From: a virus
Lineage: Duplodnaviria; Heunggongvirae; Uroviricota; Caudoviricetes
DNA length: 12,718 bases
IMG/VR virus record: IMGVR_UViG_3300029577_000207
Reading direction: 5' to 3' (one strand)
Part shown: piece after piece, positions 766-12,640 of the stretch
Layout of the letters: each line of letters opens with the position of its first letter
Numbering within the stretch: position 1 is the stretch's first letter
Made by a program: the position numbers and the translations under genes
The notes under the pieces: model-generated
What the model was told of the DNA's origin: nothing
The model's input: only the letters and a program-made list of their open reading frames with translations
Databases searched by the model: none

Positions 766-1815
766 TTAGGCCAGCACACCAATTGCCAGCGCGCGATCGA
801 TAAATCGAAAAATCAGCTCCAGTTGGGAGCCATACTTCTCTTCAAATGCCACGGTATCCGTATGCAACTCGTCGTGATGCTTTCTGCACAAAGGCAACAC
901 AAAGAGATCATGTGCTTTGGTTCCCATTCCGCCCTGCCCGTGACCAATCAGATGATGCGGATCGTCGGCTGGCATCCCGCAGCAAGCACACGGCTGTGTC
1001 TTAACCCAGCGTGTGTATTTCTCCTTAACCCAACGGTGACGTTTAGGCAGCTTCATGAAAGATTCCGGAGACTCTGGATCAACGGTGATGCTTACCACCG
1101 TCTTTTCCTGTGATGGGTTTTGTTGCTGGTGGGCGTGAGGCAACGGTGCAAGATTTTTTGTGCGCTGTTTCAATATGCTGGTGGCGGTCTGCTCTCCCGG
1201 TACGATGTCGCTTTCGCGGTACACCGAGCAGATTTTTTCCGCTGGTAATCCCAGCGAGCGACGTAATACCGCTTCCGGTAGCGCGTCCGCCAGCTGATTG
1301 CGGAGCGCCCACCAGGATAATTCAGCCAGAGATAATTCACGCTCCTGCGTACCGCTTATTGCGTGACCGATGACGTCAATCATCCATGCTGACAGGTTTT
1401 GATGAGCAAGTTGCTCGAGTGATTCGGATGTCTGGTCACGCAGCTGGTTGTCGCAGTGCCAGCACAACACCATTGCGCCGGTACCATATCGGTGAATAAC
1501 GGTTTCGCTGTGATGATAATCGCCGTGTGGCCACTGGCAGGATTTAATATGGCGCAACAGCCAGTCAGACAATGCACCAGCACCACCAGCAGCACGAATT
1601 ACCCGTGCGTTACTGAAAAACGGCAGCAATGTTTTGTCTTCCACCAGCGGCTGGCGAACGGCAGGAACGACCCCGGACGGCAGATTACGCATGCTTTTCG
1701 GTTCCGGCTCCACCAGTACCCGGGTATTGTGGAATACCGGCATGGATTCACGGCCCGGCTTAACGACCACCAGCCCGAGTTCCGGTACCAGAACAGGTCG
1801 AAGTAATACCCGCAC
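766..1815 (-). CDS. ydfU: YdfU-like prophage protein with two HNH-like Cys/His clusters
   Basis: 349-aa ORF with GTG start at 1815 preceded by GGAGG; 1 nt after the stop of the upstream ORF. Contains [10 protein letters not shown]...H...CWHC and CACCG...HHLIGH...CRKHHDELH motifs. Position (between rem and Q) and length match my memory of K-12 Qin YdfU; the DUF968 assignment is from memory. Confidence 0.65.
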
Positions 1816-1816
1816 G

Positions 1817-2095
1817 TTACCTCCAGATGCGTTGCTGGAATGTACGGGACGGACGCGGTGGGCGTTCGGAGTAAGGCAATCTGACTGAGATTATCCAGTG
1901 ACGGTAGTCGAGACTAAGGGCTTTCTTAACCTCGTATCCGCGCCTGCGGTAACACTGAATTATCCATTCAGCCTGCTCTTCAGTGCATGGAGGGTGTTGG
2001 AACCATTCAGACTTGAATGCGTGAGAATACCGCTCGTGCGTGCAGGCAAGAACGGGCGAATTATCAGAATTGTAATATTTTACGTTGCGTGCCAT
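1817..2095 (-). CDS. Hypothetical 92-aa Cys/His-containing protein
   Basis: ATG at 2095 with GGAG about 8 nt upstream; stop codon abuts the ydfU GTG start, suggesting translational coupling. No family recognised. Confidence 0.55.
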   Translation of the reverse strand: MARNVKYYNSDNSPVLACTHERYSHAFKSEWFQHPPCTEEQAEWIIQCYRRRGYEVKKALSLDYRHWIISVRLPYSERPPRPSRTFQQRIWR

Positions 2096-2161
2096 CGGTT
2101 TTCTCCGGTGGCACGGTGTTACTCAGCGGGAGTTCAGCCCCGCGCAAGATTGTAGATGAGT

Positions 2162-2413
2162 TTATTCTTCTGCAAAAGCTGAAAAGCCTGCTTTTATTCC
2201 GATCTCTTTCAGTGCCTGTAATGAAGTGACAAACTCACCTTCGCGCAAGATAAATCCGTCTGTCACTCGACCATCCACAAAATTAATTAACGCAGCCCCA
2301 TTCTTTCGCAAACACATAATGCGGTAATGACTAACAAGATTTCCATTTTCAACGCACACAGCATAGAGGCCATCTTCACAAAAAATTTTACGCAGTTCTT
2401 CGATGTTCATCAT
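2162..2413 (-). CDS. rem: Rem-like small prophage protein (83 aa)
   Basis: ORF MMNIEELRKIFCEDGLYAVCVENG... with GGAAGG 6 nt upstream of the ATG at 2413. Size and position next to hokD match K-12 Qin rem as I recall it. Confidence 0.6.
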   Translation of the reverse strand: MMNIEELRKIFCEDGLYAVCVENGNLVSHYRIMCLRKNGAALINFVDGRVTDGFILREGEFVTSLQALKEIGIKAGFSAFAEE

Positions 2414-2529
2414 CAGAATCCTTCCGGATAATTAGCTCTCCCCTTTAAGGGACCATCCCTCTTATCCCTGCGCGCTACTTAAGTATTTTTGATTCTATTC
2501 CGGCACCGTCCAGAACTTCAAACGCGTTG

Positions 2530-2560
2530 AAAATAAAAACAAAAACCCGCCGAAGCGGGT
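2530..2560 (-). terminator. Rho-independent terminator of the hokD transcript
   Basis: Hairpin ACCCGC-CGAA-GCGGGT at 2545-2560 followed on the - strand by TTTTTGTTTTTATTTT. A second 9-bp-stem hairpin (2601-2622) lies between the hok stop and this terminator, as expected for a hok mRNA 3' fold-back element. Confidence 0.75.
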
Positions 2561-2629
2561 TAAGTGCGGGTGCGTTGAGGATGCCTGCCACATCAGAGGT
2601 GGCGAGGGATTTCTCCCTCGCCGGGTCTC

Positions 2630-2785
2630 TTACTCCTCAGGTTCGTAAGCTGTGAAGACAGCGACCTCCGTCTGGCCGGTTCGGATTCGTACCTCGCAGA
2701 GGTCTTTCCTCGTTACCAGTGCCGTCACTATGACGGTTAAACAGATGACGATCAGGGCGATTAACATCGCCTTTTGCTGCTTCAT
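2630..2785 (-). CDS. hokD: Hok-family type I toxin (51 aa), HokD/RelF-like
   Basis: Translation MKQQKAMLIALIVICLTVIVTALVTRKDLCEVRIRTGQTEVAVFTAYEPEE matches HokD as I remember it. AAGGAG 9 nt upstream of the ATG at 2785. An in-frame upstream ATG at 2842 gives the 70-codon frame listed in the ORF track (mok-like leader). Confidence 0.85.
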   Translation of the reverse strand: MKQQKAMLIALIVICLTVIVTALVTRKDLCEVRIRTGQTEVAVFTAYEPEE

Positions 2786-2834
2786 AGCCTGCTTCTCCTT
2801 GCCTTTCGGCACGTAAGAGGCTAACCTACATGTG

Positions 2835-2906
2835 TCTAGCATGAAATTGGCCTCAGATTAATGTTAAGCGTCTTGCAGGACGCGTAATGTTAACTGGGGC
2901 TTTTCT
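2835..2906 (+). ncRNA. Putative Sok-like antisense RNA to the hok leader (boundaries approximate)
   Basis: + strand promoter-like TTGCCT (2799-2804), 17-nt spacer, TAACCT (2822-2827), antisense to the hok leader and mok-like start; small hairpin 2868-2883 and a T-rich run at 2900-2908. Inferred from hok/sok architecture, not from a recognised sequence. Confidence 0.3.
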
Positions 2907-2960
2907 CTATCTGCCGTTGGTGTTCATGCCCGAGGCAGATAGCCTCAAGCACCCGCAGCC

Positions 2961-2989
2961 ATTCTACTTAACTACCGTTACCTCGCCAA
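2961..2989 (-). promoter_or_regulatory. Candidate sigma70 promoter of the hokD mRNA
   Basis: On the - strand: TTGGCG (2989-2984), 17-nt spacer, TAGAAT (2966-2961). Predicts a leader of about 170 nt before the hok ATG, as in hok-family mRNAs. Confidence 0.45.
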
Positions 2990-3467
2990 TATGAAATCAG
3001 TCAGAAAGGCGATCCATAAGAACAATAGCAAGACAATAAATCGCCATTACAGCCGTAATAGCCAGCGCACATTTGAGAACCAGCACCACAACCTCCTGTA
3101 TTGGACGTACACCAGTCCTGATGAATATGAGGCTGTCTCGTCAGTGATTCAATACAACTATTGGGTATAGTTTCTCTGATTTTTTCTGTGGAAATGGGGC
3201 TCAACCACTAGTCACCACCTGCACTTCTTTTAATACGCAAAGTCCGACACAAGCTAACCTTTTAGTCCGCTTTGAGCGAACAACGGAAGTTCGGAATAAA
3301 TACTGACATAGACGTGTTTTCTTGCGGTGGCCAGTTTTTGTTGACCACTTCATTGTACCTAATCTTGGAGGTTGATCAGTTAACCCTCATTATTGCGGGT
3401 TAACTGAAGTTAGGCTTACTGTGTATAGATAAAACAAGCGTTTTTCCAAGTTACCTTAGAAAAAGCC

Positions 3468-4400
3468 TTAAGTTAGAAGCCGTTCCTCGTAATCGTCGGT
3501 TGTGGGCATTTTTCCGATCTCTGTCATGCGACACACTAATCGGGATAAAAGCACTCGTACCTCAATTATATGCTCAACTAAAAAGTTATCTGACGTAGCT
3601 CCCCCATGCACTGCCTTCGAACGGTAGTCATACAGCTTCTTAACCCTACGATAGGTGGCTAAACGATCAGGCCCTCGCTCCTCAAGATATGCTGCGGCCA
3701 TAAGAGCAAGACGAAAACGAAGCTCTGAATTGATTCCAAAGAGCGCTTCAAATCCTGCCCATAAAGCAGCAGCAGCCATTCTCAAATTCGCGTGTTGGTT
3801 GTGAGTAGTTAAAGAATCAATAGCGAGCCGGAATGCTGGTTGCTCTAGCAGATCTATCCAACGCTTGAGATTCTCTTGAACCCAGTCGAGAGACTCTACT
3901 GATATCTCTACACTTGGGCTTATTCTCCGAACTGCCGGCACGTCCTCAAGAAGTTGGACTTCACACGAGTTGGCTTGAAGAGCAGGGAATACATCCCAAG
4001 ATGCACTTGCTACTGCAGGAACAAGTATATCGGTGAGTGTGCGGCATCGGATCGCGGATATGATCCACCATCCGATAGTCAGGTCTGATTGAGAAAATTT
4101 CGACTCACTGCTTTGCAACGCAAGCTCATGCGTAACTGCGGGCATATGACGAGCAACAGCGCTGAGTAGCGACTTGCTCTTAAGCGCTTTGGCTAACTCT
4201 ATCTCTCCTGGTGGATGAAGTACCTCCCTTAATTCACCTACGTCTTGGAAAACATAAGGCCCGTTTCGAAACGTCAATCCTGACAAAGCGAAACAGATCT
4301 CATTCTGACTGGATAAACTAGATATTCGAGTTGCAGCGTATTTCTTGCGAGACTCGAAGTAGTTAAGTAAACCTGACAATTTTTCTTTGTTGATTTCCAT
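3468..4400 (-). CDS. Orphan 310-aa hypothetical protein; candidate HEPN-like effector (C-terminal R-x4-H-G motif)
   Basis: Uninterrupted 933-nt ORF with long non-coding flanks (189 bp upstream, about 620 bp downstream). No family recognised; motif YDYRSKAVHGG at residues about 258-268 (nt 3606-3623), about 50 residues from the C-terminus. Weak Shine-Dalgarno. Confidence 0.7.
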   Translation of the reverse strand: MEINKEKLSGLLNYFESRKKYAATRISSLSSQNEICFALSGLTFRNGPYVFQDVGELREVLHPPGEIELAKALKSKSLLSAVARHMPAVTHELALQSSESKFSQSDLTIGWWIISAIRCRTLTDILVPAVASASWDVFPALQANSCEVQLLEDVPAVRRISPSVEISVESLDWVQENLKRWIDLLEQPAFRLAIDSLTTHNQHANLRMAAAALWAGFEALFGINSELRFRLALMAAAYLEERGPDRLATYRRVKKLYDYRSKAVHGGATSDNFLVEHIIEVRVLLSRLVCRMTEIGKMPTTDDYEERLLT

Positions 4401-4422
4401 ATTCCCAAGCTTAGAATTTTCG

Positions 4423-4450
4423 CTATTGTGTACCGTATATTACACAATAG
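4423..4450. promoter_or_regulatory. Perfect 10-bp inverted repeat (candidate operator or RNA hairpin) upstream of the 310-aa gene
   Basis: CTATTGTGTA-ccgtatat-TACACAATAG, 23-50 nt upstream of the ATG at 4400, flanked by AGCTTAG direct repeats. Confidence 0.5.
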
Positions 4451-4589
4451 CTTAGTTAGGGCGTAGGCGTCCGCTTTTGGCACAAAGCGGACAACCACGC
4501 CAGATCTACCCTGTGCCATGAAAAATGAGAATGTCAATTCACTCCTGAACTAATGCTTTTTAATCTAGTAACGTCTAAAATACCTAACA

Positions 4590-4991
4590 TTATCCCTGAT
4601 AAAATGCCAGTATGCGCTGCATAACTTCACTCATCCGGCACTCGCGACAGATTATGTTTAGGCGACTGTCGTAGCGACGTATTTCTCCATCAGGTAACGA
4701 CCAGATAAGGTCCGGATCAATCACAGCTGTTTTCTTCACCTTTGCCCTCGAGAGTTTTTTGCGGGCGTTTTGCCAGTCCTTACGCGCCTGTTCAGACGGG
4801 AATAACCCGTAACCAGAGCTGTATACATCGCCACTGGCAACCAGCTCTCTGGCCAGAACGCTCATCAGATATCTTGTTGCCCCAGTTTTAGCTTCCAGTT
4901 GTCGTAATGTCTCGCGCCCACTCTGGCGTACGAGTTCCACCACCTGCCCTTTAATTTTTTCCCGCTCTTCTTGTGTAAAAACTTTTGCCAC
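4590..4991 (-). CDS. Small (133 aa) protein with a predicted N-terminal winged-helix DNA-binding domain
   Basis: GTG start at 4991 with GGAGGA immediately upstream, 40 nt after the O-like stop. N-terminal region QVVELVRQSGRETLRQLEAKTGATRYLMSVLARELVASGDV has the pattern of PapI/FaeA-like winged-helix regulators (pattern-level similarity only). Confidence 0.65.
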   Translation of the reverse strand: MAKVFTQEEREKIKGQVVELVRQSGRETLRQLEAKTGATRYLMSVLARELVASGDVYSSGYGLFPSEQARKDWQNARKKLSRAKVKKTAVIDPDLIWSLPDGEIRRYDSRLNIICRECRMSEVMQRILAFYQG

Positions 4992-5031
4992 AAGTCCTCC
5001 TGAACATTACTTTATGCCCTAAAATCAACAC

Positions 5032-5997
5032 TTATCCCCTGAAACCAGGCGGAATTTCTGTATCCGGTTCAGAAATATGATTCACACAACGCTGTACAGG
5101 TGAACGTCCCAGGCGGATGACCAGTTCGTCCCATTTTTTGCGGAGTTTTGACGGGCTCATGATGTTTTTTACCCAGAATTGATCTCGCTGTACCCGACCA
5201 AACATTTCGCAAATTTGTCTGTGGCTTCTGCCATCCAGCATCCGCATTGTGCGCACGTCATTGGCCCAGGCTGTCCAGTTAGGCTCTTTTGGTCGCATGA
5301 TCTCTCCATCGTCGCTGGCAGCCTGTTCGTAAAGGTTCACGATCCGCCCCCAAATCCACTGCGCACACGCCAAATCCTCCCTGCTACCCCACTGGCGTTT
5401 TTTCGCACTAAACACAACCGCGTCGGGGTTCCGGGTTAAAAAATCCTGTTCAGCCGTCTGCGGGTCCGGTTGCGAAGCTTCCGGACGAAAAGTGTTTTTA
5501 TTCTCTGTAGTAATCTCTGTTGTATTCTCTGTAAGATCATCAGGCCATTTTGACCCGATGACATTGGGTCGTTTTGAACCAATGGAGCGTTTCATTTTGA
5601 CCTCTTCCATCGTGTCATTTTGACCTGATGGAGCGGCGCATTTTGAACTGATGGATTCGCTCAATTTGCCACCATCTAAAAGCTCGCTCCCGTAGTTGAT
5701 CGTGTAGAAATTGGTCATGTCGCGCTTTGATTTATTGAGCTTTTCGCAACGTAAAAGCCCCAGCGTTTTCAGACTTGCAAACGCGCGCTTTAACGTTGAC
5801 TCTGACCAGAACGGGAACTGTTCCAGCCATTGTTCCGTTGTGTTGTAAATCCAGCGAACACCATCACATTCCATGCCGGAATTGGTATCTCTCAACCAGT
5901 AATGCAACTGCTGCAACACAATGGCTTCGTTTAAGCCAATCTTCATCGCAAGCTGTGTGTTTATAACCAGTGGGCGTTCAGCAAAAAGAAGGCTCAT
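5032..5997 (-). CDS. Phage replication initiator (lambda O-like replisome organiser) containing the origin iterons
   Basis: N-terminal winged-helix region typical of O/DnaD-like initiators (...LNEAIVLQQLHYWL...WSESTLKRAFASLKTLGLL...), five direct repeats inside the coding sequence, and position after the cro/cII-like genes. First ATG at 5997; the track start at 6051 is TTG. Confidence 0.7.
   Translation of the reverse strand: MSLLFAERPLVINTQLAMKIGLNEAIVLQQLHYWLRDTNSGMECDGVRWIYNTTEQWLEQFPFWSESTLKRAFASLKTLGLLRCEKLNKSKRDMTNFYTINYGSELLDGGKLSESISSKCAAPSGQNDTMEEVKMKRSIGSKRPNVIGSKWPDDLTENTTEITTENKNTFRPEASQPDPQTAEQDFLTRNPDAVVFSAKKRQWGSREDLACAQWIWGRIVNLYEQAASDDGEIMRPKEPNWTAWANDVRTMRMLDGRSHRQICEMFGRVQRDQFWVKNIMSPSKLRKKWDELVIRLGRSPVQRCVNHISEPDTEIPPGFRG
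5546..5654. repeat. Replication origin iterons: five direct repeats of about 23 bp, consensus CATTTTGA(C/A)C..ATGG
   Basis: Repeat units begin at about 5546, 5570, 5593, 5616 and 5639 with a regular 23-24 bp period. Adjacent 5483-5540 is AT-rich with three TCTCTGT repeats that encode a T-T-E-rich linker in the O-like protein. Confidence 0.8.
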
Positions 5998-6499
5998 AAT
6001 TCCATCCAGCTTTTTGTTGGTATTGCTGTCGATACGCAAGTTTGAAAGCAATTGCTTTTTCTATAAGTTCGTCAGTTTCACGATCCACTACGGCAGGATC
6101 AGCAAAAAGCAGTCCGGACTCCACCACATCGCCATATTCTTTGTTTAACCCGGCGATCATGTACGTAATGCTTTTCCCGTCACTAATTTCACGATACAAC
6201 CTGAAATCACTAATCCGGATAGCCTCCATAATTGCAGGCACTAGCGCCGTGAACTTTTCACGCTTATCCCTGGTGTCAATAGCCTTCCAGCGTTCGAATA
6301 TCTTCACTCGATTAACGCCAAGCGCTCGCTGATCAACCGCGCCACCTTCATCTGTGACACGCTGAACATCGATGTTCGGGCGCTCTTTCAAAGACCAAAA
6401 TGCTTCAGTGATTAATATCGTCGCCTGCTCCTGTGTCATTCCTGGTCGACATATCCAGGCATCCAGAGCCTCACGAGCCTGTTCAGGAGTGATTTTCAT
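5978..6499 (-). CDS. Early-right operon protein at the YdaT/CII-equivalent position (function uncertain)
   Basis: 173-aa ORF with ATG at 6499, overlapping the dicC 3' end by 17 nt and the O-like start by 20 nt. Assignment is by position between cro-like and replication genes only. Confidence 0.5.
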   Translation of the reverse strand: MKITPEQAREALDAWICRPGMTQEQATILITEAFWSLKERPNIDVQRVTDEGGAVDQRALGVNRVKIFERWKAIDTRDKREKFTALVPAIMEAIRISDFRLYREISDGKSITYMIAGLNKEYGDVVESGLLFADPAVVDRETDELIEKAIAFKLAYRQQYQQKAGWNYEPSFC

Positions 6500-6710
6500 T
6501 GTTCAACCGCCCCGCCCGCTTCGTCTTACGATATTCGTCATAAACCTTGGGATCATACAGAAGCTCGCCGCCAGATGCCTCCTGTAGACGCATCGCGCGA
6601 CCTTCAGGAACCAGCTCTTGCCATTGAGAAACAGCAGATGGGTCAACGCCAGCAGCTTTCGCTACTTTGGCTTTCGTACCGTAAAAATTAATTACGTCTG
6701 ATTTAAACAT
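6483..6710 (-). CDS. dicC: Cro-like regulator DicC
   Basis: C-terminal sequence ...VPEGRAMRLQEASGGELLYDPKVYDEYRKTKRAGRLNNENHS matches DicC as I recall it. ATG at 6710 with GGGGGTG upstream; divergent from dicA. Confidence 0.75.
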   Translation of the reverse strand: MFKSDVINFYGTKAKVAKAAGVDPSAVSQWQELVPEGRAMRLQEASGGELLYDPKVYDEYRKTKRAGRLNNENHS

Positions 6711-7311: not shown

Positions 7312-7387
7312 ACCTCCATCAAGACACCGCACGGTGTTCTCAGCAAACAGTTCCGCTACCCCGGCGTTAAGGGGAAATGAGGTCAGC

Positions 7388-7543
7388 ATGGATACTATCG
7401 ATCTTGGCAACAGCGAATCTCTGGTATGTGGCGTGTTCCCCAACCAGGACGGTACGTTCACCGCGATGACGTATACCAAAAGCAAAACGTTTAAAACCGA
7501 AAATGGTGCCCGTCGCTGGCTGGAAAGAAACCCAGGTGAGTGA
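7388..7543 (+). CDS. ydfA: YdfA (51 aa, Qin-type prophage protein)
   Basis: MDTIDLGNSESLVCGVFPNQDGTFTAMTYTKSKTFKTENGARRWLERNPGE with GAGG 7 nt upstream; matches K-12 YdfA from memory. Confidence 0.8.
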   Translation: MDTIDLGNSESLVCGVFPNQDGTFTAMTYTKSKTFKTENGARRWLERNPGE

Positions 7544-7544
7544 T

Positions 7545-7673
7545 ATGGATTTCGACACAATCATGGAAAAGGCTTACGAAGAATACTTCGAAGGTCTTGC
7601 CGACGGCGAAGAAGCTCTCAGCTTCAACGAATTTAAACAGGCGCTTTCCAGTTCGGCAAAATCTAACGGCTGA
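7545..7673 (+). CDS. ydfB: YdfB (42 aa)
   Basis: ATG at 7545 preceded by AGGTGA, 1 nt after the ydfA stop; translated from the sequence as MDFDTIMEKAYEEYFEGLADGEEALSFNEFKQALSSSAKSNG. Below the size cutoff of the ORF track. Confidence 0.75.
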   Translation: MDFDTIMEKAYEEYFEGLADGEEALSFNEFKQALSSSAKSNG

Positions 7674-7702
7674 TAAGCGAAACAGCACCGCGAGGAATCA
7701 GT

Positions 7703-7921
7703 ATGCAGAAACGAGAACCCGTCATCATCGCGCCAGACTATACCGATGATGAACTTTATGAGTGGATGCGCCAGAAAATTAATGCAGCGCAGGATTTGAA
7801 ATGGGCCAATGAAACCAGGGCTAAGCAGGCTGAAAATCTGTCCGCTCTGGAGCAGGATATCACCAATCTGGAAAAAGCAGCGGCATTAAGCATTGCCAGA
7901 ATGATTACATACCCGCGTTAG
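7703..7921 (+). CDS. ydfC: YdfC (72 aa)
   Basis: ORF MQKREPVIIAPDYTDDELYEWMRQKINAAQDLKWANETRAKQAENLSALEQDITNLEKAAALSIARMITYPR with GAGGA upstream; position before dicF. Confidence 0.8.
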   Translation: MQKREPVIIAPDYTDDELYEWMRQKINAAQDLKWANETRAKQAENLSALEQDITNLEKAAALSIARMITYPR

Positions 7922-8261
7922 TAGCTAATCAACAAAGCTAAGGTTAGTAATTAAGGAGTTCTCCACGGGTGAGGTGGAGTGCGTGCGCCGGACACGGGTG
8001 AGCATCCGGCACTGACAGTTTACTGAAAGGATATTTCCCTGAAAAGTCAGACCATAACGCGAAAGCGCACGGCGAGGTAGCTGGTTCATAGATAGCCTGT
8101 CGTTAAATTTTCGTCGACCGTGCGCTTCCGGTTGTGGCAACCCGCGAAATGGCGCGGCGGTAAGTATGGCGGGGTTATTCCTTCCCCGTTGAGGACACCG
8201 GGTTGTCAGGTTGACCATACGCTTAAGTGACAACCCCGCTGCAACGCCCTCTGTTATCAAT

Positions 8262-8319
8262 TTTCTGGTGACGTTTGGCGGTATCAGTTTTACTCCGTGA
8301 CTGCTCTGCCGCCCTTTTT
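8262..8319 (+). ncRNA. dicF: DicF small RNA (53 nt plus U-tail), ftsZ-targeting sRNA of the dicB operon
   Basis: TTTCTGGTGACGTTTGGCGGTATCAGTTTTACTCCGTGACTGCTCTGCCGCCC followed by TTTTT matches the DicF sequence as I remember it; located between ydfC and dicB. Confidence 0.85.
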
Positions 8320-8488
8320 AAAGTGAATTTTGTGATGTGGTGAATGCGGCTGAGCGCACGCGGAACAGTTAAAACCAAAAACAGTGTTATGGGTGGATTC
8401 TCTGTATCCGGCGTTAATTGTTAACTGGTTAACGTCACCTGGAGGCACCAGGCACTGCATCACAAAATTCATTGTTGAGGACGCGATA

Positions 8489-8677
8489 ATGAAAACGTTA
8501 TTACCAAACGTTAATACGTCTGAAGGTTGTTTTGAAATTGGTGTCACTATCAGTAACCCAGTATTTACTGAAGATGCCATTAACAAGAGAAAACAAGAAC
8601 GGGAGCTATTAAATAAAATATGCATTGTTTCAATGCTGGCTCGTTTACGTCTGATGCCAAAAGGATGTGCACAATGA
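8489..8677 (+). CDS. dicB: Cell division inhibitor DicB (62 aa)
   Basis: MKTLLPNVNTSEGCFEIGVTISNPVFTEDAINKRKQERELLNKICIVSMLARLRLMPKGCAQ; GAGGA 7 nt upstream of the ATG at 8489. The track ORF from 8384 is an upstream extension. Confidence 0.85.
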   Translation: MKTLLPNVNTSEGCFEIGVTISNPVFTEDAINKRKQERELLNKICIVSMLARLRLMPKGCAQ

Positions 8678-8865
8678 ATTCAGCATTTGTGCTTGTTCTG
8701 ACAGTTTTTCTTGTTTCCGGAGAGCCAGTTGATATTGCAGTCAGTGTGCACAGGACAATGCAGGAGTGTATGACTGCAGCAACCGAACAGAAAATTCCCG
8801 GTAACTGTTACCCGGTCGATAAAGTTATTCACCAGGATAATATCGAAATCCCGGCAGGTCTTTAA
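8674..8865 (+). CDS. ydfD: YdfD (63 aa, small membrane/lysis protein)
   Basis: MNSAFVLVLTVFLVSGEPVDIAVSVHRTMQECMTAATEQKIPGNCYPVDKVIHQDNIEIPAGL; start overlaps the dicB stop in an ATGA arrangement. Confidence 0.8.
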   Translation: MNSAFVLVLTVFLVSGEPVDIAVSVHRTMQECMTAATEQKIPGNCYPVDKVIHQDNIEIPAGL

Positions 8866-8958
8866 AACAGTTCCGTAATAAATATCCGGTTTCATTCTTA
8901 TATGCCAGCAATGGCAGGGATTTGTTCATCCTTAAATCTGTCATGAGGTTAAAACAAA

Positions 8959-11430
8959 ATGAGTAAAGTCTTTATTTGCGCCGCTATTCCTGACGAACTG
9001 GCAACAAGGGAAGAAGGCGCTGTGGCTGTAGCCACAGCCATTGAAGCTGGCGACGAACGCCGTGCTCGAGCAAAATTTCACTGGCAGTTCCTGGAACATT
9101 ATCCGGCTGCTCAGGACTGCGCTTATAAATTTATTGTCTGCGAGGATAAACCTGGCATACCCCGCCCTGCCCTCGATTCATGGGATGCTGAATATATGCA
9201 GGAAAACCGCTGGGATGAGGAGTCTGCTTCTTTTGTCCCGGTTGAGACTGAATCCGATCCGATGAACGTCACTTTTGACAAGCTGGCCCCTGAAGTACAG
9301 AACGCTGTCATGGTTAAGTTCGACACATGTGAAAACATCACCGTTGATATGGTTATTAGCGCACAGGAATTGTTGCAGGAAGACATGGCAACATTCGACG
9401 GACATATCGTTGAAGCGTTGATGAAAATGCCAGAAGTTAACGCCATGTATCCGGAGCTTAAGTTGCACGCCATTGGGTGGGTTAAGCATAAATGTATTCC
9501 TGGTGCTAAATGGCCCGAAATTCAGGCAGAGATGCGCATCTGGAAAAAACGTCGCGAAGGTGAACGCAAGGAAACCGGAAAATACACGTCTGTTGTTGAT
9601 CTCGCCCGCGCCAGAACCAATCAACAGTACACTGAAAATTCAACAGGAAAAATCAGCCCGGTCATTGCTGCCATTCATCGCGAATACAAGCAGACATGGA
9701 AAACACTGGATGACGAACTGGCCTACGCTCTCTGGCCTGGTGATGTGGATGCCGGAAACATTGACGGCAGCATCCATCGCTGGGCAAAAAAAGAAGTTAT
9801 CGACAACGACCGCGAAGACTGGAAGCGTATCTCGGCATCAATGCGCAAACAGCCTGATGCCCTTCGCTACGACCGCCAGACTATTTTTGGCCTTGTCCGT
9901 GAGCGTCCGATCGACATTCACAAAGATCCCATAGCACTGAACAAATATATCTGCGAATACCTGACGACAAAGGGCGTGTTTGAGAATGAAGAAACAGACC
10001 TGGGCACTGTTGATGTTCTCCAGTCATCAGAAACACAAACTGATGCAGTGGAAACTGAGGTATCTGATATCCCAAAAAATGAAACCGCGCCGGAAGCTGA
10101 ACCATCTGTAGAGCGTGAGGGGCCGTTCTATTTCCTCTTCGCAGATAAGGACGGAGAAAAATACGGTCGCGCAAACAAACTTTCTGGTCTGGATAAGGCA
10201 CTGGCTGCTGGCGCCACTGAAATCACAAAAGAAGAATATTTTGCCCGAAAAAATGGCACATACACGGGCTTACCGCAAAATGTAGATACCGCTGAAGATT
10301 CAGAACAACCAGAGCCGATAAAAGTTACCGCTGACGAAGTAAACAAAATTATGCAGGCAGCCAATATCAGCCAGCCTGACGCCGATAAGTTGCTTGCTGC
10401 ATCACGTGGTGAATTTGTTGAAGGGATTAGTGACCCGAATGATCCGAAATGGGTTAAGGGGATCCAGACCCGCGATTCTGTGAACCAGAACCAGCATGAA
10501 TCGGAACGGAACTACCAAAAAGCGGAACAAAACAGCACAAATGCGTTACAAAACGAGCCAGAAACGAAACAGCCTGAACCAGTGGCGCAACTGGAAGTGG
10601 AAAAAGTCTGCACCGCCTGCGGTCAGACCGGCGGCGGCAACTGCCCTGATTGTGGCGCGGTGATGGGCGACGCAACATACCAGGAAACATTCGATGAAGA
10701 GTATCAGGTTGAAGTTCAGGAAGATGATCTGGAGGAAATGGAAGGCGCTGAACATCCACACAAGGAGAACACTGGCGGCAATCAGCATCACAATAGCGAT
10801 AATGAAACTGGCGAGACGGCAGATCACTCAATTAAGGTGAACGGTCATCACGAAATCACATCCACCAGCAGGACGTGTGACCATCTAATGATCGACCTTG
10901 AAACCATGGGAAAAAATCCTGATGCCCCGATCATCTCAATAGGTGCAATATTTTTCGATCCGCAAACCGGAGATATGGGACCGGAATTTAGTAAGACTAT
11001 CGATCTGGAAACTGCTGGCGGAGTCATTGATCGGGACACCATTAAATGGTGGCTTAAGCAATCACGCGAAGCGCAATCTGCCATTATGACCGATGAAATC
11101 CCGTTAGATGATGCACTGTTACAATTGCGGGAATTTATCGACGAAAACTCCGGTGAATTTTTTGTTCAGGTTTGGGGAAATGGAGCCAACTTCGACAACA
11201 CGATTTTGCGCCGTTCATACGAACGGCAGGGGATCCCCTGCCCGTGGCGTTACTACAACGATCGCGATGTACGCACAATCGTTGAGCTGGGGAAAGCCAT
11301 AGACTTCGATGCCAGAACGGCTATTCCATTCGAAGGTGAGCGCCATAATGCACTTGATGACGCCCGTTACCAGGCAAAATACGTTTCAGTTATCTGGCAA
11401 AAACTGATCCCGAGTCAGGCTGATTCTTAA
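8959..11430 (+). CDS. ydfE: YdfE-like large protein (823 aa) with C-terminal DnaQ-like (DEDDh) 3'-5' exonuclease domain and a CxxC-x8-CxxC zinc ribbon
   Basis: Exo I MIDLETMG, Exo II VWGNGANFDNTIL and Exo III HNALDDARYQ motifs in the last ~185 residues (about nt 10870-11427); CTACGQTGGGNCPDC at about nt 10609-10656; long acidic Q/E-rich linker. Gene symbol is by position after ydfD. Confidence 0.7.
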   Translation: MSKVFICAAIPDELATREEGAVAVATAIEAGDERRARAKFHWQFLEHYPAAQDCAYKFIVCEDKPGIPRPALDSWDAEYMQENRWDEESASFVPVETESDPMNVTFDKLAPEVQNAVMVKFDTCENITVDMVISAQELLQEDMATFDGHIVEALMKMPEVNAMYPELKLHAIGWVKHKCIPGAKWPEIQAEMRIWKKRREGERKETGKYTSVVDLARARTNQQYTENSTGKISPVIAAIHREYKQTWKTLDDELAYALWPGDVDAGNIDGSIHRWAKKEVIDNDREDWKRISASMRKQPDALRYDRQTIFGLVRERPIDIHKDPIALNKYICEYLTTKGVFENEETDLGTVDVLQSSETQTDAVETEVSDIPKNETAPEAEPSVEREGPFYFLFADKDGEKYGRANKLSGLDKALAAGATEITKEEYFARKNGTYTGLPQNVDTAEDSEQPEPIKVTADEVNKIMQAANISQPDADKLLAASRGEFVEGISDPNDPKWVKGIQTRDSVNQNQHESERNYQKAEQNSTNALQNEPETKQPEPVAQLEVEKVCTACGQTGGGNCPDCGAVMGDATYQETFDEEYQVEVQEDDLEEMEGAEHPHKENTGGNQHHNSDNETGETADHSIKVNGHHEITSTSRTCDHLMIDLETMGKNPDAPIISIGAIFFDPQTGDMGPEFSKTIDLETAGGVIDRDTIKWWLKQSREAQSAIMTDEIPLDDALLQLREFIDENSGEFFVQVWGNGANFDNTILRRSYERQGIPCPWRYYNDRDVRTIVELGKAIDFDARTAIPFEGERHNALDDARYQAKYVSVIWQKLIPSQADS

Positions 11431-11788: not shown

Positions 11789-12640
11789 ATGAAATATCCG
11801 ACAGGCGTGGAAAACCATGGAGGGAAATTACGTATCTGGTTTGTTTATAAAGGCGTAAGAGTCAGGGAAAATCTGGGGGTTCCTGACACAGCAAAAAACA
11901 GGCGCGTTGCAGGTGAACTACGCGCCTCTGTTTGTTACGCAATAAAAACTGGTGTTTTCGACTATGCAAAACAGTTTCCCTCCTCACGCAATCTGGAAAA
12001 ATTTGGTGAGGCCCGACAAGATTTAACCATAAAAGAACTGGCTGAAAAATTTCTGGCACTGAAAGAAACTGAAGTCGCAAAAACATCACTCAACACATAC
12101 CGTGCCGTCATCAAAAATATCCTGAGCATAATCGGTGAAAAAAATCTTGCCTCATCGATTAATAAAGAAAAATTACTGGAGGTTCGTAAAGAGCTACTGA
12201 CTGGATACCAGATCCCCAAAAGTAACTATATTGTTACACAACCAGGGAGATCGGCTGTAACTGTAAATAATTACATGACAAATCTTAACGCCGTGTTCCA
12301 GTTTGGTGTTGATAACGGTTACTTGGCAGATAACCCGTTTAAGGGGATCTCGCCATTAAAGGAATCAAGAACCATTCCGGATCCTCTTTCGCGGGAGGAA
12401 TTCATCCGTCTTATCGATGCGTGCAGAAATCAGCAAGCCAAAAATTTATGGTGTGTTTCTGTTTATACTGGCGTTCGCCCTGGTGAGCTGTGTGCACTTG
12501 GATGGGAGGACATAGATCTGAAAAATGGAACAATGATGATCAGGAGAAATTTAGCAAAAGACCGTTTCACGGTACCAAAAACACAGGCGGGAACCAATCG
12601 GGTCATTCATCTTATTAAGCCAGCAATCGACGCTCTCTGA
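11789..12640 (+). pseudogene. Tyrosine-recombinase phage integrase, 3'-truncated by IS3
   Basis: N-terminal SAM-like domain and the first catalytic Arg region (TGVRPGELCALGWEDIDL) are present, but the ORF ends after about 283 codons with a TGA supplied by the first three bases of the IS3 terminus (12638-12640). The downstream His/Arg/Tyr catalytic residues are missing. Confidence 0.8.

What the first reader, a model, noticed from the sequence alone, without database searches (positions are those of the whole stretch)
2530..2990. Complete hokD type I toxin locus without the adjacent relBE found in K-12
The Hok reading frame is intact and has the expected parts: a candidate promoter (TTGGCG-17-TAGAAT), a leader of about 170 nt with a 9-bp-stem hairpin (2907-2942), an upstream in-frame mok-like start at 2842, a 3' fold-back hairpin and a terminator. 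In K-12 as I recall it hokD lies directly downstream of relBE and is thought to lack its own regulation. Here relBE is absent and a candidate antisense promoter exists on the + strand (2799-2827), so this copy may be an autonomous hok/sok module.
Basis: partly seen in the sequence, partly recalled or inferred. Interest (0 to 1): 0.45.

Follow-up and report, generated by a model that had tools for sequence, protein, structure and literature searches.

The report
Intact prophage hok/sok toxin-antitoxin cassette
This is an ordinary, complete copy of the long-known hok/mok/sok RNA-controlled toxin cassette, carried by a Qin-type prophage of E. coli; the unusual version is the one in lab strain K-12, where a known rearrangement removed the control region and left relBE in its place.

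Summary
Window 2536-2989 holds a complete hok/mok/sok type I toxin-antitoxin unit on the minus strand. It has a promoter, a 169-nt leader that matches Rfam RF01794 end to end (115 bits), an in-frame mok start, a HokD ORF identical to the K-12 protein, a 3' fbi element pairing with the 5' end, and a terminator. On the plus strand it has a Sok promoter and a ~77-nt antisense RNA that aligns with annotated sokC.

K-12 is identical only from position 2799 downward. Upstream of that, K-12 carries relE-relB-ydfV-flxA-ydfW instead. The window has no RelB or RelE homologue.

Expression and activity were not tested.

It is not new. At least 2460 of 5426 complete E. coli genomes carry the intact form, against 1166 with the K-12 junction. 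74 phage records carry the cassette (mEp460 at 99.8%), and the 70-aa Mok-Hok ORF occurs on at least 1000 contigs. The K-12 truncation has been in the literature since 1999. Interest is low.

Side observation: a conserved, unannotated ~300-nt segment with a 29-codon membrane-peptide ORF lies just upstream, next to a variable cargo slot.

The parts
2984..2989 (-). hok promoter -35 (TTGGCG)
   Evidence: Consensus scan. 17-nt spacer to the -10.
2961..2966 (-). hok promoter -10 (TAGAAT), 6 nt before +1
   Evidence: A TAnnAT hexamer lies at the same offset from the conserved +1 in relatives with unrelated upstream flanks.
2536..2954 (-). Full-length hok (mok-hok) mRNA, about 419 nt; +1 = G2954
   Evidence: Rfam RF01794 model position 1 aligns to 2954. 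Fold -173.3 kcal/mol, z = -7.06 against shuffles. The structure is kept in 32 relatives.
2943..2954 (-). tac element (GGGUGCUUGAGG), the 5' end of the mRNA
   Evidence: Pairs with nt 375-387 in the MFE fold. Pairs with nt 53-59 when the mRNA is cut at nt 368. Conserved in relatives.
2907..2942 (-).
   Evidence: helix 2: 95.8% of cells paired, 3 pairs changed on both sides.
2896..2902 (-). ucb / anti-SD (AAGCCCC). Predicted to pair with the mok SD region in the full-length form and with tac in the processed form.
   Evidence: cols 56-58 with 104-107 invariant G-C pairs. Element names as in PMC9841398.
2851..2854 (-). mok Shine-Dalgarno (GAGG), 8 nt before the mok ATG
   Evidence: Invariant GAGG in 32 relatives.
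2630..2842 (-). mok reading frame: 70 codons, in frame with hok (19-codon N-terminal extension), stop included
   Evidence: Same arrangement as annotated mokC/hokC in K-12. The exact 70-aa product is on at least 1000 public contigs.
2817..2821 (-). dcb (GCCUC). Pairs with GAGGC of the mok SD region in the processed form, closing the Sok-target hairpin.
   Evidence: Fold of the mRNA cut at nt 368 and the Rfam consensus structure.
2795..2799 (-). hok Shine-Dalgarno (AGGAG). K-12 homology begins exactly here.
2630..2785 (-). hok (hokD) ORF, 51 aa plus stop
   Evidence: Pfam HOK_GEF 3e-23. RefSeq protein WP_000813254.1 in both the best-matching genome and K-12.
2601..2622 (-). 3' stem-loop after the stop codon; presumed 3' end protector of the processed mRNA
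   Evidence: Helix 19: 97.3% of cells paired, 3 pairs changed on both sides. The role is inferred from R1 (PMC9841398).
2568..2580 (-). fbi element (CCUCAACGCACCC), complementary to tac
   Evidence: duplex -21.1 kcal/mol; same position in 34 of 36 relatives, with compensatory changes. (col 4/403: U-A in 21 sequences, C-G in 9).
2536..2561 (-). Intrinsic terminator of the hok mRNA (7-bp G+C stem plus T-run)
2799..2804 (+). Sok promoter -35 (TTGCCT); overlaps the complement of the hok SD
   Evidence: Aligned with the R1-type and sokC promoters. TTGCCT or TTGACC in all relatives. K-12 hokD keeps only its first base.
2822..2827 (+). Sok promoter -10 (TAACCT), 17-nt spacer
   Evidence: Not called by the consensus scan.
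2834..2910 (+). Sok antisense RNA, about 77 nt. About 9 nt of 5' single-stranded tail, then a long hairpin and U-run. Complementary to hok mRNA nt 45-121, which includes the mok SD and AUG.
   Evidence: Ends mapped by alignment to annotated sokC (NC_000913 16952-17010). Fold -30.3 kcal/mol, z = -5.27.

Best explanation
Window 2536-2989 is an intact, self-contained hok/mok/sok type I toxin-antitoxin cassette of the hokD type. It is carried as accessory cargo between the replication genes and the rem-ydfU-Q region of a Qin/mEp460-type lambdoid prophage.

Inferred mechanism, as established for plasmid R1:
1. The hok promoter makes a stable ~419-nt mRNA. Its 5' end (tac) pairs with a 3' element (fbi).
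2. In this closed form the mok ribosome-binding site is held by an upstream anti-SD (ucb), so neither translation nor Sok binding occurs.
3. Slow 3' trimming removes fbi. tac then pairs with ucb, and the mok SD region forms the Sok-target hairpin with dcb.
4. The mRNA can now be translated, with hok translation coupled to mok. Alternatively it is bound by the unstable ~77-nt Sok RNA made from the opposite strand. Sok binding blocks mok, and therefore hok, and leads to duplex cleavage.
5. If Sok synthesis stops, the membrane toxin Hok is made.

Shown here: sequence identity, all elements in place, predicted folds and covariation. Inferred only: transcription, processing, toxicity and biological role.

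The K-12 relBE-hokD arrangement is the derived state. There, a 2.07-kb relE-relB-ydfV-flxA-ydfW segment replaces window 2800-6219.
For: - Leader: the Rfam RF01794 match is full length at 115 bits.
- Toxin: HOK_GEF domain, and the protein is identical to HokD.
- Full-length fold: the MFE pairs nt 1-12 with 375-387, z = -7.06.
- tac-fbi in relatives: complementarity sits at the same 3' UTR position in 34 of 36 relatives, with compensatory changes.
- Independent consensus fold: RNAalifold recovers the 5'-3' helix, and 16 of its pairs show changes on both sides.
- Pair counts: the window's structure is 87.4% paired across 32 relatives against 37-44% for slid controls. 35 pairs change on both sides, and 0 of 500 shuffles reach the observed values.
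- Processed form: cutting the mRNA at nt 368 gives tac-ucb plus the target hairpin.
- Sok: its promoter and ends align to annotated sokC and to the R1-type locus. The Sok fold has z = -5.27.
- mok: the in-frame arrangement equals annotated mokC.
- K-12 rearrangement: breakpoint at 2799/2800 and the replaced segment mapped.
- Prevalence: intact form in >=2460 of 5426 genomes against 1166 with the K-12 junction.
- Phages: the same cassette is in 74 phage records.
- Literature: mechanism from PMC9841398; HokD coding sequence toxic on overexpression and hok enriched in prophages (bioRxiv 10.1101/2025.08.07.668861).
Against: - There are no expression data.
- The Sok promoter matches the consensus at only 7/12, and the scan does not call it.
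- The predicted fold of the processed mRNA depends on the 3' end chosen. Only the cut at nt 368 gave tac-ucb; cuts at 374 and 360 kept a 5' hairpin.
- The tested structure was derived from the window's own sequence, which favours it over the slid controls.
- As summarised in the 2025 preprint, the native chromosomal hokA, hokB and hokC loci that were tested did not mediate post-segregational killing. An intact sequence therefore does not prove activity.
Confidence: 0.9

Rival explanations
1. The cassette is intact in sequence but physiologically silent or only weakly active. This would match what was reported for other chromosomal hok/sok loci. It would then persist by hitch-hiking on the prophage rather than by killing or stabilising anything.
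For: [quoted passage not shown] The Sok and hok promoters are only moderate consensus matches.
Against: All regulatory elements are kept, with compensatory changes, across genera. The cassette is retained as a unit in many phages with unrelated flanks. Both points argue for selection on function. The HokD coding sequence is toxic when overexpressed.
Confidence: 0.25
2. The cassette works as described, but its role is to help the phage rather than to stabilise it. Hok would be released when Sok falls during prophage induction and would speed lysis and phage release, as shown for hokW-sokW of Sakai prophage Sp5.
For: PMC8621323 reports that sokW disappears after mitomycin C, that HokW is made in a RecA-dependent way, and that phage yield halves without the locus. 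The window's cassette lies in the early-right region of a lambdoid prophage, in the same orientation as rem-ydfU-Q.
Against: hokW is a distant relative, about 37% identical over 41 aa, and sits at a different phage position downstream of lom. Nothing has been tested for the hokD type. The prophage in the window may be defective.
Confidence: 0.3
3. The locus is a decayed or dependent remnant, as in K-12. Hok would then be expressed only by read-through from upstream genes and without Sok control.
For: This is the state of hokD in K-12 and in 1166 of 5426 genomes.
Against: The window carries the whole leader, its own promoter at the family-conserved offset, the mok start, and the Sok promoter and terminator. 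None of these is present in K-12.
Confidence: 0.03

Closest known systems
hok/mok/sok (parB) of plasmid R1
   Same: Same parts in the same order: promoter, tac, leader hairpin, ucb, mok SD, mok overlapping hok, dcb, hok SD, Hok/Gef toxin, 3' hairpin, fbi, terminator. The cis-antisense Sok has its promoter between the mok and hok starts (element names from PMC9841398).
   Different: Toxin only 42% identical over 45 aa. Nucleotide similarity is limited to short leader blocks. The Sok hairpin is longer. The locus is prophage-borne rather than plasmid-borne.
hokC/mokC/sokC (gef) of E. coli K-12
   Same: Closest annotated chromosomal paralogue that has an annotated Sok RNA. mok is in frame with hok as a 19-codon extension. 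The Sok 5' and 3' ends align directly.
   Different: The K-12 copy has IS186 downstream and no fbi at the normal position. SokC is 59 nt against about 77 nt here, because the hairpin carries an 18-nt insertion.
hokD (relF) of the K-12 relBEF operon, Qin prophage
   Same: Identical Hok protein, hok SD, 3' UTR, fbi and terminator, at the same prophage and chromosomal position. Window 766-2799 is 94% identical to K-12.
   Different: K-12 lacks everything upstream of 2799: the hok promoter, tac, ucb, the mok start and the Sok gene. It has relE-relB-ydfV-flxA-ydfW instead.
The same cassette in sequenced phages (mEp460, HannyBb, Evi, Tritos, a Rac record, Stx2a-phage records)
   Same: 99.8% identity over all 461 nt in mEp460 and HannyBb. 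Same neighbours on the rem/ydfU/Q side. Already annotated as Mok/Hok/HokD.
   Different: The gene immediately upstream of the cassette differs from phage to phage.
hokW-sokW of Sakai prophage Sp5
   Same: A prophage-borne hok/sok locus shown by experiment to be a type I TA system (PMC8621323).
   Different: Distant Hok, about 37% identical, at a different position in the phage genome.

Membership tests
[quoted passage not shown] | Small Hok/Gef membrane toxin ORF | tested here: met
   Pfam PF01848 E=3e-23, 81.6 bits against a cutoff of 22. Identical to RefSeq HokD WP_000813254.1.
[quoted passage not shown] | Conserved hok mRNA leader (sequence and structure) | tested here: met
   Rfam RF01794 covers model positions 1-157/157 at 115.3 bits against a gathering score of 59.
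[quoted passage not shown] | Long-range tac (5' end) to fbi (3' UTR) pairing that closes the full-length mRNA | tested here: met
   Present in the MFE fold. Conserved in position, with compensatory changes, in 34 of 36 relatives. Recovered by RNAalifold. Pair counts.
[quoted passage not shown] | Alternative tac-ucb and mok SD-dcb pairing after 3' processing | tested here: inconclusive
   The sequence fits the Rfam structure that encodes this form, and the MFE of the mRNA cut at nt 368 shows it. Cuts at nt 374 and 360 gave a 5' hairpin instead. The real processing site is unknown.
[quoted passage not shown] | Overlapping mok frame with its own SD, starting upstream of hok | tested here: met
   ATG 2842, GAGG 8 nt upstream, 70 codons. 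In frame, as in annotated mokC; the frame is not conserved across the family.
[quoted passage not shown] | Cis-encoded antisense Sok gene with a promoter between the mok and hok starts and a terminator hairpin, covering the mok SD and AUG | tested here: met
   Promoter and both RNA ends align to annotated sokC and to the R1-type locus. The boxes are kept in all relatives. Fold z = -5.27. This shows that the gene is present, not that it is expressed.
[quoted passage not shown] | Sok expression, 3' processing of hok mRNA, RNase III cleavage, toxicity, post-segregational killing | not testable with these tools
   Needs northern blots or RNA-seq and genetics. HokD coding-sequence toxicity is reported elsewhere.
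relBE type II toxin-antitoxin system (K-12 relBEF context) | RelB antitoxin and RelE toxin genes adjacent to hokD | tested here: not met
   tblastn of K-12 RelB and RelE against the whole window gives only noise (E 3.9 and 9.8). The gene upstream of hok is a 310-aa ORF that RefSeq names HEPN domain-containing.

The most novel reading that the evidence does not exclude
The stretch just upstream of the hok promoter may be a recombination and cargo-exchange point of Qin/mEp460-type lambdoid phages. Different accessory genes are found beyond it: a HEPN-annotated protein, a zeta-toxin family protein, the Paa adhesin, relBE-ydfV-flxA, and others. On this reading the K-12 relBE-hokD fusion is one such swap that overshot into the hok leader.

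A conserved, unannotated ~300-nt segment (window ~2990-3290) lies between hok and that slot and is found in about 1,700 genomes. It encodes a 29-aa hydrophobic peptide behind an invariant AGGAGG SD. This peptide might be an undescribed small membrane protein that is functionally linked to hok/sok.
Probability: 0.25. Interest if true: 0.3.

Novelty: already known. Interest (0 to 1): 0.08.

Why it matters
It matters little as a discovery. The hok/sok architecture has been understood since the 1990s, the K-12 hokD truncation was described in 1999, and this exact cassette is annotated in thousands of genomes and dozens of phages.

Its practical value is as a reminder that K-12 is the atypical reference for hokD. 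Anyone studying HokD regulation, A-to-I editing of hokD mRNA, or the role of hok in prophages should use an intact copy such as this one, or the copy in phage mEp460, rather than the relBEF-fused K-12 gene.

Tried and rejected
- Chance ORF or chance promoter. Rejected: the full-length Rfam hit, the identical HokD protein and the conserved offsets rule it out.
- Direct nucleotide search for R1 hok/sok with the window cassette. It found only short, 16-18% coverage matches in plasmids. An R1-type locus was therefore fetched through the R1 Hok protein instead.
- My recollection that mok is always out of frame with hok. Not upheld: it is in frame in the window, hokC, an O157 copy and the R1-type variant I fetched, and out of frame in hokB and an IncY phage-plasmid copy.
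- Equating the cassette with the experimentally studied hokW-sokW of Sp5. Rejected: Sp5's Hok-like hit is only about 37% identical and lies downstream of lom. The 'MokW' labels in phage records are annotation names only.
- A literature search for 'sokD' returned nothing relevant. The review PMC2593563 is not held. The 1999 Pedersen and Gerdes paper could be cited only second-hand, through PMC12214031, PMC1635323 and the 2025 preprint.
- PADLOC, Pfam and NCBIfam gave no hit for the 310-aa 'HEPN' neighbour or for the small upstream ORFs. Only a PHROG of unknown function matched.
- Two early scripts failed for technical reasons, a wrong file layout and a faulty regular expression.

Full report
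**What is there**

The minus strand of window 2536-2989 carries a complete hok-type unit (sequence read).

- The Rfam 'sok' family RF01794 is modelled in the sense of the hok mRNA leader. It matches 2954..2780 over its whole length (positions 1-157 of 157) at 115.3 bits, against a gathering score of 59.
- The ORF 2785..2630 encodes the 51-aa protein MKQQKAMLIALIVICLTVIVTALVTRKDLCEVRIRTGQTEVAVFTAYEPEE. It has a Pfam HOK_GEF domain (E = 3e-23).
- It carries the same RefSeq protein accession (WP_000813254.1, HokD) in the best-matching genome and in a K-12 derivative.

- Promoter. TTGGCG-17-TAGAAT lies at 2989..2961. Such a match alone is not above chance, since 1.4 are expected in the scanned 1.1 kb. 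However, its -10 ends 6 nt before the conserved 5' end GGGUGCUUGAGG. Relatives from several genera have a TAnnAT hexamer at the same offset even where the flanks further upstream are unrelated.
- Leader. With +1 at G2954 the leader is 169 nt.
- Hairpin. The 9-bp-stem hairpin at 2907-2942 is predicted. Across relatives it keeps 95.8% pairing, with three pairs changed on both sides.
- mok. The ATG at 2842 opens a 70-codon frame in frame with hok, with GAGG 8 nt upstream.
  - The in-frame arrangement is not unusual. Annotated mokC and hokC of K-12 share a stop codon in the same way.
  - mokB and an IncY phage-plasmid copy are out of frame.
  - This fits the published view that it is translation of mok, not its product, that matters (PMC9841398).
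- 3' end. A 3' stem-loop (2622..2601), the fbi element (2580..2568) and an intrinsic terminator (2561..2544 plus T-run) follow the stop codon.

**RNA architecture**

- Full-length fold. The minimum-energy fold of the full-length mRNA (419 nt, -173.3 kcal/mol, z = -7.06 against dinucleotide shuffles) closes the molecule by pairing nt 1-12 with nt 375-387. The mok SD region pairs with the upstream AAGCCCC box. This is the tac/fbi and ucb arrangement described for R1 (PMC9841398).
- tac-fbi in relatives. In 36 relatives from Escherichia, Shigella, Kluyvera, Pseudocitrobacter, Photorhabdus and Pantoea, a tac-complementary 3' element lies 45-56 nt after the stop codon in 34 of them. The changes are compensatory: GAGG with CCUC versus GAGA with UCUC, and GGGUGC with GCACCC versus GGCGC with GCGCC. 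The exceptions include K-12 hokC, which has IS186 downstream.
- Independent consensus. RNAalifold recovers the 5'-3' helix without being given it. At column 4/403 there are 21 U-A and 9 C-G pairs. 16 of its pairs are changed on both sides.
- Pair counts. The window's own structure mapped on the alignment is 87.4% paired, against 37-44% when partners are slid. It has 35 pairs with changes on both sides, against 9-20 for the slid versions, and 0 of 500 shuffles reach the observed values. One caveat applies: the structure was derived from one member of the alignment, which favours it over the slid controls.
- Processed form. Cutting the mRNA at nt 368 gives tac-ucb pairing plus the GAGGC/GCCUC target hairpin. 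Other cut points keep a 5' hairpin, so this switch is compatible with the sequence but not proven.

**The antisense gene**

On the plus strand, TTGCCT (2799-2804), a 17-nt spacer and TAACCT (2822-2827) sit exactly where the Sok promoters of the R1-type locus and of K-12 sokC sit. The match to consensus is only 7/12 and the scan does not call it. The aligned R1-type and sokC boxes match the consensus to the same degree, and both boxes are kept in every relative.

Alignment to the annotated sokC RNA (NC_000913 16952-17010) places Sok +1 at G2834 and its 3' end near 2910. That makes it about 77 nt, which is 18 nt longer than SokC because of a hairpin insertion.

The RNA folds into a ~9-nt 5' tail plus a long hairpin and U-run (-30.3 kcal/mol, z = -5.27). 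It is complementary to hok mRNA nt 45-121, which includes the mok SD and AUG.

**The K-12 comparison**

- K-12-lineage genomes match the 631-nt query only over window 2430-2799.
- The pairwise alignment shows identity from AGGAGAAGCAGGCTATG downward and the end of relE upstream.
- Window against K-12 Qin: 766-2799 matches ydfU to hokD at 94%. Homology resumes at 6220-6611 (ydfX/dicC), at 7317-9725 (the region that includes dicF, dicB and ydfD) and at 11910-12637 (integrase).
- Window 2800-6219 therefore has no K-12 counterpart. It holds the hok leader and sok, a 310-aa ORF that RefSeq names HEPN domain-containing, a DUF977 gene, a 339-aa ORF and part of a ydaT-like gene. In K-12 it is replaced by 2.07 kb carrying relE-relB-ydfV-flxA-ydfW.
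- The window has no RelB or RelE homologue.
- The literature already describes K-12 hokD as inactivated by genomic rearrangement and lacking canonical TA components (PMC12214031, citing Pedersen and Gerdes 1999). hokD/relF has been known as part of the relB operon since 1986 (reference lists).

**How common it is**

- At least 2460 of 5426 complete E. coli genomes hold 80% or more of window 2430-3060, which requires the leader. This is a lower bound, because many 68-77% matches also include the leader.
- The K-12-type relE-hokD junction is in 1166 genomes.
- 74 phage records carry 80% or more of the cassette. mEp460 and HannyBb are 99.8% identical over all 461 nt, and annotations include 'MokW protein', 'HokD toxin', 'mok' and 'hok'.
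- The exact 70-aa Mok-Hok product is on at least 1000 public contigs under Hok/Gef names.
- A 2025-26 preprint catalogues 44,248 Hok homologues, shows that hok is enriched in prophages, and finds the HokD coding sequence toxic.

**Mechanism and function**

The mechanism given under Best explanation is inferred from R1 by element-for-element correspondence. None of its dynamic steps was tested here. The biological role is open.

- Post-segregational killing or prophage stabilisation is the classical idea. However, the native chromosomal hokA, hokB and hokC loci that were tested failed such assays.
- A distant prophage relative, hokW-sokW of Sp5, aids lysis and phage release on induction (PMC8621323). 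It is only about 37% identical and lies elsewhere in its phage.

**Verdict**

The thing itself is already known and common, so interest is low.

**Side observation**

About 300 nt upstream of the hok promoter (window ~2990-3290) is conserved at 90-98% in about 1,700 genomes and is unannotated there. Beyond it the cargo varies. Within it, a 29-codon hydrophobic ORF (GTG 3086 to stop 2997) follows an invariant AGGAGG. It is intact in six copies, with roughly equal numbers of synonymous and mostly conservative replacement changes. It has no family match and is only sporadically called as a hypothetical protein.

Noticed in passing
window 2997-3097 (- strand), within the conserved segment ~2990-3290: An unannotated 29-codon hydrophobic ORF (V/MLVLKCALAITAVMAIYCLAIVLMDRLSD; GTG 3086, stop 2999-2997) lies behind an invariant AGGAGG SD (3097-3092) and ends 8 nt before the hok -35. 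It is intact in 6 copies that are 90-100% identical, with about 5 synonymous and 5 mostly conservative replacement changes. The surrounding ~300 nt is conserved in about 1,700 E. coli genomes and carries no annotation there. It has no Pfam, PHROG or NCBIfam match and is called 'hypothetical protein' on 31 contigs. A terminator-like hairpin (3062..3043) lies inside it, and an overlapping 67-codon frame is also open, so coding is not proven.
   Followed up: partly
window ~3290-6219 and the equivalent positions in L006, L061, L062, L064-L067 and L002: The gene(s) beyond the conserved segment upstream of hok/sok differ between otherwise similar prophages: a 310-aa ORF that RefSeq names HEPN domain-containing (here, shared with only 14 genomes), the Paa adhesin (O157), a 449-aa ORF (mEp460), a zeta-toxin family protein, various hypotheticals, and relBE-ydfV-flxA in K-12. 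This looks like a variable cargo slot.
   Followed up: partly
window 3468-4400 (- strand): The 310-aa protein that RefSeq names 'HEPN domain-containing' has no Pfam, NCBIfam or PADLOC hit. It matches only PHROG 28161 of unknown function (E = 1e-179). Its function is unknown.
   Followed up: partly
window 8263-8314 (+ strand) and 8489-8865: A DicF sRNA is present (Rfam RF00039, 76.7 bits, full length), followed by dicB (8489-8677) and ydfD (8674-8865). This is the Qin-type cell-division-inhibition module, here in a prophage that also has an uninterrupted 823-aa exonuclease ORF, an excisionase and an integrase next to rspB.
   Followed up: no
window 2644-2647 (- strand): The hok Tyr47 codon TAC is followed by G, giving UACG. 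That is the TadA recognition motif as I recall it from the bacterial editing literature; I did not check this. PMC12214031 reports about 6% A-to-I editing of hokD mRNA in K-12, recoding the conserved Tyr to Cys (its position 46 in Hok numbering). The site is unchanged here.
   Followed up: no
window 2492-2521 (- strand): A second promoter-like site (TTGAAG-18-TAGAAT, 9/12) lies just downstream of the hok terminator and upstream of rem (2413..2162). It may be the rem promoter.
   Followed up: no
window 2860-2885 (+ strand) compared with L003 sokC: The Sok hairpin of the hokD-type cassette carries an 18-nt insertion relative to SokC, SokB and the R1-type Sok. The same longer form is seen in Kluyvera and some other relatives.
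   Followed up: partly
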